Positions 21,083-64,000 of a DNA stretch of 64,000 bases are shown one piece after another. Numbering within the stretch: the stretch's first letter is position 1; the number at the start of each line of letters is the position of its first letter. The translations under genes and the position numbers were made by a program. The stretch is taken from contig OX597826.1 of the NCBI GenBank assembly GCA_951406725.2, forward strand, positions 4,030,001-4,094,000, written 5' to 3'. The stretch comes from Octopus vulgaris (lineage: Eukaryota). Below the pieces are notes generated by a model. It made no database searches and had not been told where the DNA came from. It worked only from the letters and a program-made list of their open reading frames with translations.

Positions 21083-21084
21083 TA

Positions 21085-21150
21085 GTGTGTCAAAAGCCAG
21101 CTGGAGGATATGTCTTCCTGGGGCTACAAGCTAAAGTAGCATCAACCCTT
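21085..21150 (+). mobile_element. Fragment of the conserved domain of the 350/360-bp retrozyme-like families
   Basis: agccagctggaggatatgtcttcctggggctacaagctaaagtagca resembles agccaactggaaacggcgtttcctggggctaaatagcagtagca (53.8 kb, minus). Confidence 0.55.
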
Positions 21151-21295
21151 AAGGGTTAGCCACATTTAGGTGGCAAATATACTTCACAATGTCGTGCTGC
21201 TTCTGTTTATATCTTGCTCAGAGATTTATTATTGCCCCTTAATAGTTTATTCTACATTTATATTTCCAAGTTGCTAGTATTATTTCATTGTGAGA

Positions 21296-53743: not shown

Positions 53744-54371
53744 TGTGATGGTTTGTTGGCAACTTAATGTGCCTGTCCCAGGAAAAGGAAGAATGCTACT
53801 GCTATTTAGCCCCAGGAAACGCCGTTTCCAGTTGGCTACGTGACAGAAGCTTTCTGCGTTCTTAAGTTTTCAAACAGGGGAGATAAGCACCTCCACCCAG
53901 CAAAACCAGCAAGCAGAGACCAGTTTCAGAGTTATTGATCTTCATCAGTCTGGAGTAGTTTGTTAGCTGTCGATAATTATTCGCCTTTGAAAACTTACAG
54001 AATTTCAAGTGAAATAAATTCACTGATCTACAAGATTAGAATTATTGCTTTTCTAAATCTCCCAGAGAGACTTATGCAGTAGTAGCACGAAAAATGTGAT
54101 GGTCTGTTGCCAATTTAATGGGGTAGTCCCAGGAAAGGGAAGAATGCCACAGCTATTTAGTCCCAGGAAGCATCGTTTCCAGTTGGCTACGTAACAGAAG
54201 CGATCTATGTCCTTAAGTTTTCAAACACGGGAGATAAGCACCTCCACCCACCAAAGCCAGCACCCAGAGACTAGTTTCAGAGTTATTGCTTTGCTGGGTG
54301 AAGGTACTTATCTCCCCTGATTGAAAACTTAAGAACACAGAAAGCTTCTGTCACGTGGCCAACTGGAAACG
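53744..54371 (-). mobile_element. Retrozyme/Penelope pLTR-like repeat: ~350-bp tandem plus inverted terminal segment
   Basis: 53744-53937 repeats at 54095-54288; ~54290-54371 is the reverse complement of ~53823-53903; hammerhead at 53914-53953. Confidence 0.8.
53914..53953 (-). ncRNA. Type I hammerhead ribozyme motif
   Basis: CCAGA-CTGATGA-AGAtcaataacTCT-GAA-ACTGGT-C-TCTG; second partial copy (54264-54289) reads gcaataactct-GAA-ACTAGT-C-TCTGG with palindromic stem III. Confidence 0.8.
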
Positions 54372-58072: not shown

Positions 58073-60037
58073 TACACATAAATTTATAAGTACACACATA
58101 TACATATGAATAGATGTGGTGTGTGTGTGTATGCGTGTGTGTGTGTGAAGCAGTGACCCGGCCCTTCATATCCTACACCCGTCAAAGTGAAGTAAACGAG
58201 TGCAAGAAGATTAGCACAGTTGCTGCGTTTGTGTTTTCGCTGAATGAAATCCTCTGGAGATTTGCCGTCGGTGAAGACCCCTCTCCTCACCACGAACGAC
58301 ATGTACACGCTTTCCACCCCGATGGTCCCTATCGACTTAGTTTACGAATGATGGCGTTGTGACCCTGCAAGACGAAACAGTGATACCGTATGACCTATGA
58401 AAATGTGCCGATTGGCCGAGACTGACGCTTCCGTGACTGAGTCTCCTAATTATTTTAAGACATTGAACAAGAAAGACAACTCTGCATTGAAGGAGCTCCA
58501 ATCCTGTGCAGCAGCGTGCGTAGTATGTTGAGCAACAAGCAAGGCGTTCTTTTACATTTCCCGCGTAAGATTTGATACAGACGTGTAAATACCCTCCACG
58601 CATCTCAAGTAAGCAACGGAAAAATAAGAAACTAATAATTTACTGCAAGTTGCGTAGAATTACGTTTGAGCGTCTTCCATTTATGGCCAGCTAAATTTGT
58701 TTACACAAAGGCCTTTTATGAGCACTCTGTGTGTGTGTGTGAGAGAGAGAGAGAGAGTGTGTGTGTGTATGTGAGTGTGTACGTGAATGTGTGTGTGTGA
58801 GAAAGTGTGCGTGTACGCGCATATGAATTTCTTAAGAGATTGCCGAATATATGGGAGGTATACTTATATATATAATTAAACTTTATATATATATATACAT
58901 ATATATATATACATATATATATTTATATTTATTTATTTATTTATATAATATATTTGTATATTCACGGGTCTGTGTGTCTGTGTGTGCATGTATGAGTGTA
59001 TGTTATATACATATTCATGTACATACATCCTCGTAAACACTTTAATAATATCTACATGCTTATATTGGGATTTCATGTTGTTTCTTTGATATTAATAATT
59101 TATTTTTCAGCTATGCCTTTTCAAGCTTACAAATATTGATTTCCCCCTAATTACTCGCATACACACACATACACCATATATGCAAATGCATTCGTAATAT
59201 AAAACATACATGCATTGATATACATAAGCTCACACAGACATGCGTACACAAATATATGCATGCATTAAATATGTATACGTGCATGTATATATACACATTT
59301 TTAAACACAGTCACACATACATAAATATGCATGTATTATTTACGTAAGATTACATGTATGTAAATATACGTGTATATCTGGAAATATGCATGTATGTATA
59401 TGTGTGTGTGTGTGTGTGTGTGTACGTGTGTGCGTGTATGTATATGTGTACTGACGTCATGATAAGAATATTTTATGTTGAAGTATATTAACAGTTTCAT
59501 TACGATGCACATCAGAAATTTTAAAGAAATATCACGTGACGCATACCAATATCTACAAACAAACATCGGCGTATCTTATTTCTCATCCTATCGCAGCGTC
59601 AGTTCATGTAAACCGTGCTATCCGGTGTATTCATATCAGAAAATGAAATAGTTTCTGTTTTTTTTTTTTGTTTTGCTTTTTTTAAAATTTCTTATCAAGA
59701 TGAAATATTAATTTTTGTTGACAGGAACGGCATTAAGGAAATGAATATGTTCACAAACAACCAAAAACATGACGGAAAATATGCTTGAAATTTAAAAGAA
59801 ATTTTAACAAACAAAACATTTAATGATACGCGGTGGATTCTTCTGTCATTTTTGAAAAGTTCTTGAAACTGCTTTGATCATTGTAGGAAGGTATACAATT
59901 TCATGCTCCATTTAAAAGAAAAACATATATTGCTTGATGCTATTGATGTTGATGTAACAATCAATTGAACGAAAATAATTCTTCGCACCCAATACCCTAT
60001 TTCCACTAATAATAATACGATTGATGATGATGATGGA

Positions 60038-60260
<223 letters not shown>

Positions 60261-60619
60261 AGGGGAGGACTGATAATAATAGTGTTTTTCTTATTATCCA
60301 TCAGTCTTTATGTATATAATACAAAACACATTACGTAGAATAGTTACAAAATAAGTGGAAATTTACATTTAAATTATTCAAACGCAATGGAACCAAATGT
60401 TGTTCTTCCACTCTTCAACGAAGAATCAGACCCTCTTTCTCTCCCATCCAATGATGTCCTTCTTTCAACTGCAAACCGGATCTTAGAAATTAATATGTTC
60501 TACTCAAATATCTCTTAAAGAAACATGCTGTTTGTTCACTTCTAAAGCATAGATGATCTATAGTAGGGCTGGCCATTAACTAAATGGATTTCCTTTATGA
60601 CCGTTCATCTCTCTTTTCC

Positions 60620-62370
60620 TCGACGGTTTTTTCCAATCTTCTCTCGGACGCATATCCTCATCGCTATAAAACACTGGGAGAGCCTTCGTCCTTGAACTGT
60701 CAGTCTGGTAAAAAAATGTTTCCTTTCTAGATGGAGCATTCTTTCCAGTTGGCTTTGTAGTAAACGGGGCTTATAAGGAAATGGAGCCTGATGAATACCA
60801 CCCTCTAAGAACATACGTTTGTAGATCATACCTGAACGCAATCCCTACACGAAGTCCGTTTAAAAGTTATAATGAGCCCATCATCCACAACGACACCAAT
60901 ATCACCAGTCATAACACACGCACTTCCCTTGCCAGCATATTGAATTATTACCCGATTGGAAGGTGTCTACCTTCTCCGCTCATTCCAAGCCAGTGTCGTA
61001 TATTATGGACCCGAATCACCAAGTATACTAACCAGACTAAAAGAGCGTTCATCCAGCAACACATTGACAAAGACCACTGTAACTCATAGTTCGAAGACTT
61101 ATGTCAGATCACTGCTATTAAAGCAGACAAAAGTTAATGTCATTCTTCCTCTTTCGTTAAATCTTTGAACAGGAAGTCATAGTCTAGCGTGGCAAATGGT
61201 CTTTTCCTTGGATAAAACTGATCGACAGAATATACCTATGACTCTTAAAGTTAGCAATACATATGTTTCTCTTTTGGAACTGTCGTTGGTACTTATGGCA
61301 CTTATTCGGCGGACATTATTAAGTCACGCATATATCAGGGGAATACGTCCCTTTCTGAGAGACTTCCCACAGCTTATTGGCATTTAGATTAGAATCGTTC
61401 GTATTCTTTTCAACTCTTGGCACAAGGCCCAACATTTTGGGGGAGGGGCCAGTCGATTAGATCGAAGCTCAGTACGCAACTGGTACTTAATTTATCGACC
61501 CCGAAGGGCTGAAAGGTAAAGTCGACCTCGGCAGAATTTGAACTCAGAACGTAAAGACAGACGAAATACCGCTAAGCATTTCGCCCGGCCTCAAACCTTT
61601 CATATTTCTTTATTGCCCACAATGAGCTAAACATAGAGAGGACAAACAAGGCCAGACAAAAGTATTAAGTCGACTACATCGAGCCCAGTGCGTAAGTGGT
61701 ACTTAATTTATCGACCCCGAAAGTATAAAAGGCAAAGTCGACCTCGGCAGAATTTGAACTCAGAACGTAAAGACAGAAGAAATACCTATTTCTTTTCTAC
61801 CCACAAAGGGGCTAAACACACAGAGGACAAACAAGGACAGAAAAACGTATTAAGTCGATTATATCGACCCCAGTGCGTAACTGGTACTTATTTAATCGAC
61901 CCCGAAAGGATGAAAGGCAAAGTCGACCTCGGCGGAATTTGAACTCAGAACGTAACGGCAGACGAAATACTGCTAAGCAATTCGCCCGGTATGCTAACAT
62001 TTCTGCCAGCTCACCGCTCTAAAAATCCTTTGTATTAAATAATCAATGCTGGTTTTCAAATGTTCTTCAGTGACCATTTCTTGCCCAGTTTTACAAAATA
62101 ATTGTGGTGGGAAACACAGTAGATCGTAACTGACAAGTTTTGCGTTGGTCGCGAATAAGAGCACTCAACAATCCATGCTATTGGCGATTCTGCGGATGAG
62201 AGGGTTCCCTTCTTATTCACTTTAGAAGACTCCACATTTGTCATTACAATTGATGAGGATATCTTGGGAAGCAGGTGCCATAGTCTTCAGCTTCGGTGCT
62301 TGCCTATGCTGTTGCATGCTCTTATAGATTGTATCGACCTTCACTTTTATATTGTTTCATCTGGGAGATT
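60620..62370 (-). mobile_element. Probable highly degraded L1/Tx1-like ORF2 remnant, interrupted by a SINE array
   Basis: GC-richer block; weak motifs only (LG..GP, RLTVQGR). Confidence 0.35.
61405..62020 (-). mobile_element. SINE family B trimer
   Basis: Three units near 61405, 61603, 61787. Confidence 0.9.
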
Positions 62371-62509
62371 AGGAAGAGAGAAAGAGAATGAGAGACAGAA
62401 ATTATTGAGAAATGGTGAAAAAACAAGTGAAAGAGAACAGGCATGAAAAATTAATAGAGAATACTTAATGATTTGTTATAGGCGCAGGAGTGGTTGTGTG
62501 GTAAGTAGG

Positions 62510-62808
62510 TGGCATACTTCAGTATAGAGAGGGCGGGTTTATTTTTTTCGCGGTGGAAGTCACGTCGGTGTGTGTCAGCGTCGTGAAATAGTGAAGCACG
62601 ACTACTACGTAAGACATCTTTTGGGGGGGGGGGACCTAGTAGCTTAGAATAGGCTCGAATTAGAGATTATTCTTTGTGGCTAATGGCGTGAGTCCTGATT
62701 GGAAGAAGAAGAAGAAGAAGAAGAAGAAGAAGAAGAAGAAGAAGAAGAAGAAGAAGAAGAAGAAGAAGAAGAAGAAGAAGAAGAAGAAGAAGAAGAAGAA
62801 GAAGAAGA
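62510..62808 (+). mobile_element. RTE-like LINE 3' end with (GAA)n tail, following a SINE-A head fragment (62478-62510)
   Basis: gctcgaattagagattat region resembles the RTE A.DR..W end; perfect (GAA)n at 62702-62807. Confidence 0.4.
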
Positions 62809-63243
62809 GTGCAGCATTTTTCCTGATATGAAAGTTTTAGATTAAAAAGAACAAATTTTAAATGAAATATCTTTTTTTATTTGTTGTTCAGCTCCAGGAT
62901 ACCGCTTATCGAGCAGACGTATCATCCGAATCGTTTAACCGTTTGTTCAATGCATCTTTCTCTTTTCTCCTAATTTGATATGAAAAAAAAAAAAAGGACA
63001 GAGGCAAAGGTTAGGAAGTACTCGGTTCGTTTCAAATTTGGTCAAAACTCTCAGACAACTTGAGTGATTGTCTTTACTGTAGCTTCAGATTGACCAATAT
63101 CTTCAATAGAATTTCAAGCTGTGTGTATATATACAGATATATATATATGTGTGTGTGTGTGTGTGTTTGTATGTTTACATATTATATATGTTATGTGTAT
63201 ATATATACATATAAATATTATATATTAAATATATGCACATATA

Positions 63244-63295
<52 letters not shown>

Positions 63296-63571
63296 ATATG
63301 TATATATATATAACATAAGGGACTAAAGCCATCTGAATATGGCTAGGGACAGGGCAGGGTGGTGGGGGTGTTACTGTTGCATTTAGCCCCAGGCGAACAT
63401 CGACGTCACCAGAAAGGCTCGACACCGTCACGGTGCCCTTAACCTGCAAAGGGAGGTAATTATATCCCTTTAGAGAATTATTATTGCTTTCGAACAGATT
63501 TTCGAAATCAGCAAATGTATTTTGCTTGAAAATCTATATAAGAAAATCCTGCAGAGTGAGAATTCGTCGAG

Positions 63572-63645
63572 GAAGCGGAGGCCTACCACACGCCGATGAT
63601 AGGCAATACACCTTGAAACCATGGTCCGTGTGTGGTTTCCGCTTC
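63572..63645 (+). ncRNA. Type I hammerhead ribozyme with variant core CCGAUGA
   Basis: CACACG-CCGATGA-t-AGGcaatacaCCT-t-GAA-ACCATGGT-C-CGTGTG; stem I extends via gaagcggaggcc / ggtttccgcttc; predicted cut after C63626. Confidence 0.8.
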
Positions 63646-63931
63646 ATCGGGGAATTACCTCCCTTTGCAGGTTAAGGGCACCGTGACGGTGTCGAGCCTT
63701 TCTGGTGACGTCGATGTTCGCCTGGGGCTAAATGCAACAGTAACACCCCCACCACCCTGCCCTGTCCCTAGCCATATTCAGATGGCTTTAGTCCCTTATG
63801 TTATCGAGCAGTTACTGTCTATATCCCTTTTAGAGAATTATTATTGTTTTCGAACAGATTTTCGAAATCAGCAAATGTATTTTGCTTGAAAATCTATATA
63901 AGAAAATCCTGCAGAGTGAGAATTCGTCGAG

Positions 63932-64000
63932 GAAGCGGAGGCCTACCACACGCCGATGATAGGCAATACACCTTGAAACCATGGTCCGTGTGTGGTTTCC
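63932..64000 (+). ncRNA. Second identical hammerhead copy
   Basis: Same sequence 360 nt downstream; predicted cut after C63986. Confidence 0.8.

What the first reader, a model, noticed from the sequence alone, without database searches (positions are those of the whole stretch)
63310..64000. Very young 360-nt hammerhead retrozyme-like tandem with a non-canonical CCGAUGA core
Seen: two hammerhead-shaped motifs exactly 360 nt apart, each with a 6-bp stem I plus a long distal extension, stem II AGG/CCT, palindromic stem III ACCATGGT and a GUC site. The tandem copies differ by about two positions, and a ~152-bp segment is perfectly inverted at the 5' end next to (TA)n. Established: tandem 170-400 nt repeats bounded by type I hammerheads (non-LTR retrozymes) yield circular RNAs in other animals; inverted 5' segments are typical of Penelope-like element (PLE) insertion; palindromic stem III permits dimeric cleavage. 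Inference: a recently active cephalopod family producing a 360-nt (63627-63986) RNA, possibly circular. Both copies have C at core position U4, so this is either a functional variant core or a mutation fixed just before insertion.
Basis: partly seen in the sequence, partly recalled or inferred. Interest (0 to 1): 0.82.

Follow-up and report, generated by a model that had tools for sequence, protein, structure and literature searches.

The report
Young jumping repeat with weakened ribozyme
This is one copy of a recently spreading 360-base repeat carrying a hammerhead-shaped RNA motif with an unusual but family-wide C at a normally conserved position; it likely cuts itself slowly and is likely inserted by a Penelope-type retrotransposon, so it is a new variant of a known kind of element.

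Summary

The C at core position 4 is not a private mutation. There are 817 exact copies genome-wide and none with another base in that context. C4 recurs in related ~350-nt families (at least 4-5 changes on a tree) and in 32 of 32 ribozymes of a very young autonomous Neptune-type Penelope element. Stems and the palindromic loop covary across families.

Of 58 loci, 44 are head-to-head two-armed insertions; 37 of these end at unit position ~178 on one side and ~222 on the other. This is the Penelope two-site 'tail' signature.

Verdict: a young non-LTR retrozyme / non-autonomous Penelope-like element. U4C and the U·U pair at the base of stem II are known, activity-lowering variants. Cleavage, a circular RNA and the mobilising partner are not shown.

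The parts
63179..63309 (.). (TA)n microsatellite, left target flank
   Evidence: array 63179-63312; the same target flanks most of 58 loci
63310..63461 (-). Inverted arm: unit positions 27-178, its 3' end (site A, position 178) pointing left into (TA)n
63462..63626 (+). 5'-truncated first unit of the forward arm (starts at about unit position 194-203), ending at the first GUC
63568..63648 (+). Hammerhead domain 1 with distal stem I extension: stem I 63587-63592/63627-63632, core CCGAUGA 63593-63599 (C4 = 63594), U·U 63600/63614, stem II 63601-63603/63611-63613, GAAA 63615-63618, palindrome 63618-63625, predicted cut after 63626
63627..63986 (+). First whole 360-nt unit (predicted cut to predicted cut); non-coding, 47% GC, predicted highly self-paired
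63805..63848 (+). 'Tail' segment (unit ~179-222) between the two fixed 3' end sites of the family
   Evidence: tail concept from PMC11167929 and PMC8557442
63928..64000 (+). Hammerhead domain 2 (C4 = 63954, predicted cut after 63986), cut off by the window end; four more cores follow and the element ends at G000:C13:4095648 (L031:3149, unit position 222) in (TA)n

Best explanation
This is a 2.3-kb insertion of a very young, non-coding 360-nt tandem repeat whose every unit carries a type I hammerhead motif with C at position 4; it is likely a non-LTR retrozyme copied into (TA)n by the reverse transcriptase and endonuclease of a Neptune-type Penelope-like element, and its ribozyme likely cleaves slowly as a dimer. 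Steps: (1) inferred: arrays are transcribed as multimers. (2) inferred: neighbouring hammerheads pair through the ACCAUGGU palindrome and cut after GUC at a low rate (U4C plus U·U), leaving a mix of multimers, monomers and ligated circles. (3) footprint shown, enzyme inferred: both strands of a (TA)n target are nicked and two cDNAs are primed on the RNA at two fixed internal sites, ~178 and ~222 nt after GUC, one site per strand. (4) shown: each arm runs through GUC sites for a variable number of units (up to about 15), stops at a scattered position, and the two 5' ends are joined head to head, mostly with 0-8 nt of overlap. Separate odds: mobilised by Penelope-type machinery about 0.9; ribozyme still cleaves at some rate about 0.6; circles serve as a template about 0.5.
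For: Young dispersed family: 234 matches from 40 of 834 candidates, whole units 98-100% identical; 817 + 416 cores. Ends: 44 of 58 loci two-armed, 37 of 44 with one A and one B end, only 2 with like ends; matches the two RT start sites, the 30-40 bp tail and both-strand extension in PMC11167929 and the inverted copy, tail and microsatellite bias in PMC8557442. Hammerhead shape kept across families 47-62% identical: 93.2% of cells paired, 12 of 14 pairs with two-sided changes, 0 of 500 shuffles reach the covariation score, slid controls 17-41% paired; loop III palindromic in 23 of 23. A canonical-core homologue hits Rfam Hammerhead_1 at 32.2 bits (gathering 34), E 1.2e-4. Position 4 is C or U, never a purine, in the first 100 of 1,136 older-family cores (47 CCGA, 50 CUGA, 3 CCAA, my count); position 7 varies freely. 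Close relatives show U3·G8 and the known U3-A8 pair. A 775-aa RT + GIY-YIG element, 99.8% identical among 12 of 28 copies, has CCGAAGA plus U·U in 32 of 32 ribozymes, two ends and (TA)n targets. Single-unit bottleneck: 0.55 substitutions between units within a locus against 4.2 between loci (187 units), with haplotypes shared by both arms, e.g. 23 of 23 in L084. Circular monomer fold z = -4.9, 0 of 60 shuffles.
Against: No cleavage or RNA data. The hammerhead fold of the single domain is 7.4 kcal/mol worse than the predicted best fold (-30.0 against -37.4). Mutants of the CUGA turn other than the C3/G8 swap had low activity in PMC9901934; U4C lowers activity considerably in vitro (PMC3088659); 8 of 9 Xenopus retrozymes did not cleave (10.64898/2026.07.22.740005); in the anole element dead ribozyme mutants inserted normally (PMC11167929). 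5' ends are not clearly tied to the cut site (106 arms, uniformity p = 0.08; 5 truncations at position 2 among 15 hits). Some insertions had mixed templates: G4T only in the two terminal units of L048, T91C in 5 of 6 segments of L045, which a single monomer circle cannot give. No DNA homology between the unit and the two intact Penelope families examined. Core invariance in alignment A1 is partly built in, because most rows were found by core patterns and shown only if stem I had at least 4 pairs.
Confidence: 0.68

Rival explanations
1. It is a non-autonomous Penelope-like element whose hammerhead is catalytically dead or nearly so. Uncut read-through multimers are the only template, and the motif persists as a folding or protein-binding element, or by recent descent.
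For: Two activity-lowering features at once (U4C, U·U); the sister family swaps to another weak core, U3·G8. Arms read through GUC and 5' ends are scattered. Mixed templates in L048 and L045. Ribozyme cleavage was dispensable in vitro in PMC11167929.
Against: G5, A6, G8, A9, GAAA and GUC persist across families about half identical while position 7 drifts and 3/8 covary as in active ribozymes. Loop III stays palindromic through six different sequences. A U4C viroid stays infectious (PMC3088659). Linear copying alone shortens arrays and does not readily give 15-unit homogeneous arms of new haplotypes (inference).
Confidence: 0.22
2. Short one- or two-unit insertions were made by Penelope machinery, and the long homogeneous arrays grew afterwards at the DNA level (slippage or unequal crossing-over), as proposed in 10.64898/2026.07.22.740005.
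For: Some private variants sit in adjacent or alternating units of one arm (G314C in 3 of 7 segments of L033, C129A in 2 of 8 of L036, G245A in 2 of 5 of L074).
Against: Both arms are often long in the same very young locus (L032 about 8+8 units, L084 about 15+8, L089 about 10+7) and share minority variants across arms (L032, L045, L048). Arm lengths and 5' ends look like variable cDNA truncation.
Confidence: 0.08
3. The tandem or the inversion is an assembly artefact.
For: Some loci show many single-base deletions typical of read error (L037, L087).
Against: Dozens of loci with different flanks, junctions and haplotypes share the same two biological ends. Independent runs hold 390-nt (360 + 30) contigs or joints going back 360.
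Confidence: 0.02

Closest known systems
Metazoan non-LTR retrozymes (Cervera and de la Pena 2020, PMC7229834), e.g. mussel 350-390 bp repeats and axolotl Rtz_353 with HHR_Amex2
   Same: Tandem 360-nt non-coding units, one type I hammerhead each, GC under 50%, predicted self-paired; 2-bp helix III with a tetraloop and U·U at the base of helix II as in HHR_Amex2, which cleaves weakly as a monomer and better as a dimer.
   Different: C at core position 4. Head-to-head arms with two fixed ends ('inverted', 'octopus' and 'cephalopod' occur 0 times in that paper's main text). RNA and circles not shown here.
Penelope-like elements and their pLTR/tail structure (Frangieh 2024, PMC11167929; Craig 2021, PMC8557442), Neptune type
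   Same: Two fixed 3' ends about 44 nt apart downstream of the hammerhead, inverted 5'-truncated arm, AT-rich microsatellite target.
   Different: No RT/GIY-YIG ORF. No sequence match to the pLTRs of the two intact families examined (775 aa and 781 aa).
Vertebrate retrozymes as non-autonomous Penelope derivatives (Li 2026, 10.64898/2026.07.22.740005)
   Same: Co-occurs with active Penelope-like elements; several families; monomers to multimers.
   Different: That work rests on co-distribution and pLTR similarity and leaves the mechanism open; here the insertion footprint itself points to Penelope-type priming, but pLTR similarity was not found.
U4C hammerhead variant of a viroid (cited in Perreault 2011, PMC3088659) and CYGANGA-descriptor hammerheads (PMC13481778)
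   Same: Same core change; lowered but not abolished function reported.
   Different: Here it is fixed in over a thousand genomic copies of a mobile animal repeat, recurs across lineages and is paired with U10.1·U11.1.

Membership tests
Type I hammerhead ribozyme | Three-helix junction with open helix I, supported by covariation | tested here: met
   rows were picked by core pattern and a stem I filter, so support is partly built in
Type I hammerhead ribozyme | C3, G5, A6, G8, A9, G12, A13, A14, A15.1-U16.1 and an NUH cut site | tested here: met
   sequence, (GUC)
Type I hammerhead ribozyme | U at position 4 (CUGA turn) | tested here: not met
   C4 in 280 of 280 segments; known natural variant
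Type I hammerhead ribozyme | G10.1-C11.1 pair | tested here: not met
   U·U; paired in only 5 of 23 relatives; U·U is described as the best-tolerated mismatch
Type I hammerhead ribozyme | Match to Rfam hammerhead models | tested here: not met
   no hit at E<=1; homologue L149 hits RF00163 just under the gathering score
Type I hammerhead ribozyme | Self-cleavage | not testable with these tools
   needs in vitro transcription
Type I hammerhead ribozyme | Loop 1 / loop 2 tertiary contact | not tested
   a bulged distal stem I is predicted but contacts were not analysed
Non-LTR retrozyme | Tandem 150-450 bp units, each with a type I hammerhead motif | tested here: met
   six cores at 360-nt spacing
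Non-LTR retrozyme | Non-coding, GC under 50%, highly self-paired | tested here: met
   longest ATG ORF within the unit 50 aa, antisense; GC 46.9%; z = -4.8 linear, -4.9 circular
Non-LTR retrozyme | Dispersed, recently mobile copies | tested here: met
Non-LTR retrozyme | Expressed as unit-length linear and circular RNA | not testable with these tools
   only assembled contigs of runs guessed to be RNA were available; genomic tandems give the same 360-nt cycle
Non-LTR retrozyme | Target-site duplication | tested here: inconclusive
   both flanks are (TA)n, so a duplication cannot be read
Non-autonomous Penelope-like element | Two fixed 3' ends bounding a 30-45 nt tail | tested here: met
   178 (42 arms) and 222 (39 arms) of 106
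Non-autonomous Penelope-like element | Inverted 5'-truncated arm and microsatellite target | tested here: met
   44 of 58 loci two-armed
Non-autonomous Penelope-like element | Sequence similarity to the pLTR of an autonomous partner | tested here: inconclusive
   none against 30 GIY-YIG loci, 20 wider loci and 30 loci of the 775-aa family; only 150 of 6,136 GIY-YIG candidates were scored
Autonomous Penelope-like element | RT + GIY-YIG ORF | tested here: not met

The most novel reading that the evidence does not exclude
In this animal lineage Penelope-type hammerheads, in retrozymes and in an active autonomous element alike, have repeatedly settled on attenuated cores (C4, or U3·G8, with a stem II mismatch) that tune the ratio of cut monomer to multimer; one Neptune protein dimer then primes both target strands on one circular RNA at two fixed sites, one per strand, and rolls round it to write the two head-to-head arms. 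The genome would hold hundreds of readable records of a retrozyme's insertion mechanism.
Probability: 0.3. Interest if true: 0.72.

Novelty: new variant of a known kind. Interest (0 to 1): 0.5.

Why it matters
How animal retrozymes are inserted, and whether the circle is the template, is stated as open in 10.64898/2026.07.22.740005. Here a family about 99% identical, with linked haplotypes, two fixed ends and co-active intact Penelope proteins, makes that directly testable. It also shows a blind spot: CUGANGA descriptors and Rfam miss these motifs, yet C4-type patterns give 2,433 hits (control 334) against 3,761 (control 193) for U4-type in this genome. For ribozyme chemistry it offers natural C4, U3·G8, U3-A8 and canonical versions of one scaffold. 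It is not a new class: the element type, U4C and U·U each have precedent.

Tried and rejected
Rfam on window 60000-64000: only microRNA-like hits on simple repeats, no hammerhead.

'Private mutation at this locus': rejected.

'U4 copies of older families are only CpG decay of C4': rejected, 3 CCAA against 50 CUGA in the first 100 of 1,136 rows, whereas decay should give both about equally.

5' ends at the cut site as a trace of cleavage in vivo: 3 of 106 arms start at unit position 2. Genome-wide, 5 of 15 hits are true truncations, 7 carry C1T (2 of these truncated a little further upstream), 2 are GT slippage and 1 is a double change. My rough expectation is about 1, but three of the five suggested the test, and none of the 106 arms starts at position 1. 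Inconclusive.

Fold-back origin of the inverted arm: junction positions of the two arms lie within 16 nt in 6 of 44 loci, about 4 expected (my count). Not supported.

The shared G51T/52del/C56G variant in L032 lies in a hairpin and may be read error; given little weight.

Partner search: no homology to the 781-aa family (core UUGAUAA) or the 775-aa family. The 78% tail hit in L210 is a separate relative fragment in the flank.

Expression: no RNA holder listed on record. Contigs of runs guessed to be RNA hold the unit but cannot show ends, strand or circles.

Metagenome scan for the core: 0. Earlier findings of this scan: none in three look-ups.

Tree: 26 rows, positions 3-4 masked; L151, L052, L069 and L157 left out as non-homologous downstream. 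Some single-copy states in old loci may be post-insertion decay, and the C4 label is no more clustered than shuffles (187 of 500).

Lünse 2017 on dimer-cleaving Penelope hammerhead variants was not held and may already list C4 variants. Supplements of the papers were not read.

Full report
Observation. The hammerhead also has a U·U mismatch at the base of stem II. Rfam does not recognise it. The window lies at G000:C13:4030001-4094000. The neighbouring stretch L031 shows the whole insertion: (TA)n, an inverted arm covering unit positions 178 to 27, a forward arm from position ~200 through five whole units to position 222, then (TA)n; 2,339 bp with six cores, the units differing by 0-3 bases. 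The longest ATG-started frame within the unit is 50 codons, on the antisense strand.

Family and age. A search with one unit scored 40 of 834 candidate regions and returned 234 matches on many contigs, whole units at 98-100%. The exact 34-nt core occurs 817 times (control 0); with A, G or U at position 4 and U7 it occurs 0 times. A further 416 cores have another base at position 7; of the first 100 listed, 99 have C4 and 1 has U4. In 61 fetched loci, 280 of 280 segments covering the core keep C4. Contigs from runs coded as organisms B, C, D and E that cover the core list no change at position 4. C4 is therefore a family trait.

Relatives. The genome holds many related ~350-nt families, alignable over the ribozyme, body and tail at 47-62% identity. 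Loose patterns give 2,433 CCGANGA-type hits (control 334) and 3,761 CUGANGA-type hits (control 193). In the first 100 of 1,136 older-family cores I count 47 CCGA, 50 CUGA, 3 CCAA and no purine at position 4, so both states are real lineages rather than CpG decay. One C4 family has a nine-core array of period 352. The closest sister (about 93% identical, 55 of 55 cores) has U3U4 with G8 and a CUAG loop, and the same ends. U3-A8 versions appear in L120 and L181 and in runs X19 and X20. On a tree of 26 rows with positions 3-4 masked, C4 needs 8 changes, at least 5 forced by well-supported branches (U4: 7 and 4); some of these may be decay in old single copies. On 23 aligned ribozymes all 6 stem I pairs, all 3 stem II pairs and both palindrome positions show two-sided changes, far above shuffled and slid controls, while the 10.1-11.1 position pairs in only 5 of 23. 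Caveat: most rows were found through core patterns and a stem I filter. A handful of bystander copies found by a profile of the body alone (L228, L203, L148, L181, window 53.9 kb) also carry recognisable cores. The homologue L149, with U4 and G-C, hits Rfam Hammerhead_1.

Insertion footprint. I examined 58 loci: 38 chosen from the best hits and 20 from the top's list, which together include all 18 clusters listed on contig C1. Of 106 arms, 42 end at position 178 and 39 at 222. Forty-four loci have two arms joined head to head; 37 have one end of each kind, 5 have one recognisable end, and 2 have like ends. Of 14 one-armed loci, 10 end near 178 and 3 near 222. The 5' ends are scattered (p = 0.08 against uniform) and most junctions overlap by 0-8 nt; a few carry inserted letters. 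Frangieh 2024 (PMC11167929, parts 1-2 of 4 read) showed that a Penelope protein nicks and extends both strands of AT-rich DNA and starts at two internal RNA sites that bound the tail. Craig 2021 (PMC8557442, passages) describes the inverted copy, the 30-40 bp tail and the microsatellite bias. The footprint here fits twin priming, one site per strand. The enzyme is inferred.

Candidate partner. A GIY-YIG search scored 150 of 6,136 candidates and led to two intact RT + GIY-YIG families with the CX4CxxC linker that Craig 2021 gives for Neptune and Nematis. The 781-aa family (copies about 96% identical) has a UUGAUAA core. The 775-aa family is very young: 76 of 76 scored matches at 100% protein identity, DNA median 99.8% among 12 of 28 copies. 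All 32 of its ribozymes found in 30 loci (one locus gave none) read CCGAAGA with U·U closing stem II and a palindromic helix III; 13 run into (TA)n at 134-142 nt and 17 at 169-171 nt after the cut site, 2 lying at a locus edge. It shares age, target, two ends and core variant with the retrozyme, but no alignable DNA. It is a candidate only.

Template. Units within a locus differ by 0.55 substitutions, between loci by 4.2 (187 units). Five-site haplotypes are fixed through both arms of arrays of over 20 units, and rare variants are fixed in all units of L078 (8 of 8) and L080 (4 of 4). This points to a one-unit bottleneck, as a circle would give; Cervera and de la Pena 2014 (PMC4209133, parts 1-2 of 4 read) proposed such circles for Penelope tandems. 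Against a pure monomer circle, L048 has G4T only in the terminal unit of both arms and L045 is mixed, so multimeric templates are used at least sometimes. Slow, incomplete cleavage would produce both. The circular monomer is predicted to be strongly self-paired with the ribozyme unfolded (z = -4.9), the single hammerhead is 7.4 kcal/mol above the best fold, and the palindrome duplex is -11.2 kcal/mol, consistent with activity only in dimers.

Is it active? For: covariation, C/U-only position 4, 3-8 covariation, a U4C viroid that stays infectious and U·U as the best-tolerated mismatch (PMC3088659, passages and section 8), and axolotl HHR_Amex2 with U·U cleaving well as a dimer (PMC7229834, parts 2-3 of 6 and passages). 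Against: low activity of CUGA-turn mutants (PMC9901934, passages), 8 of 9 inactive Xenopus elements (10.64898/2026.07.22.740005, parts 1-3 of 5), cleavage dispensable in vitro, and only a weak, after-the-fact excess of 5' ends beside the cut site. I put residual cleavage at about 0.6.

Novelty. Non-LTR retrozymes, their link to Penelope-like elements, U4C (a CYGANGA descriptor is used in PMC13481778, passages) and U·U are all in print. Searches for hammerhead + octopus + Penelope, retrozyme + cephalopod, hammerhead ribozyme + U4C and the motif strings listed no description of this family, of C4-fixed animal retrozymes, or of A/B-ended two-armed retrozyme insertions; those hits were seen as listings unless named above. 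The library lacks most subscription papers, Lünse 2017 was not held, and supplements were not seen. Verdict: real, a new variant of a known kind, interest 0.5.

Noticed in passing
window 53748-54330, - strand: An older relative of the same superfamily: two tandem copies 352 nt apart with a canonical CUGAUGA core and a shorter helix III (GAAA-CUAG/CUGG-UC), plus a short inverted piece next to an (AAT)n run.
   Followed up: partly
window 21083-21182, + strand: A further fragment matching the body profile of the superfamily (E 3e-22).
   Followed up: no
window 61405-61970: Two to three tandem copies of a 185-bp repeat; from recall it resembles a common octopus SINE, not tested.
   Followed up: no
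L213-L242 (e.g. G000:C14:47995581-47997302): Very young Neptune-type Penelope element, 775-aa ORF, CCGAAGA ribozyme, tandem and head-to-head copies in (TA)n; probably active now.
   Followed up: partly
L193-L209 (e.g. L196:768-4471): A second Neptune-type family with a 781-aa RT/GIY-YIG ORF preceded by a separate 479-aa open frame with no Pfam match over cut-off; L232 also shows an upstream frame after the pLTR. The passages read on PMC8557442 describe a single ORF for canonical elements.
   Followed up: no
L087:2359-2621 and L100:2134-2287: Foreign inserts of 263 and 154 nt between the two arms, possibly captured RNA or template switches.
   Followed up: no
L052/L053 (G000:C2:145452242-145452718) and L151, L054: Other hammerhead families with longer stem II (434-nt spacing in L052; AGCU palindromic loop in L151 and L054), one L151 copy also with C4.
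   Followed up: no
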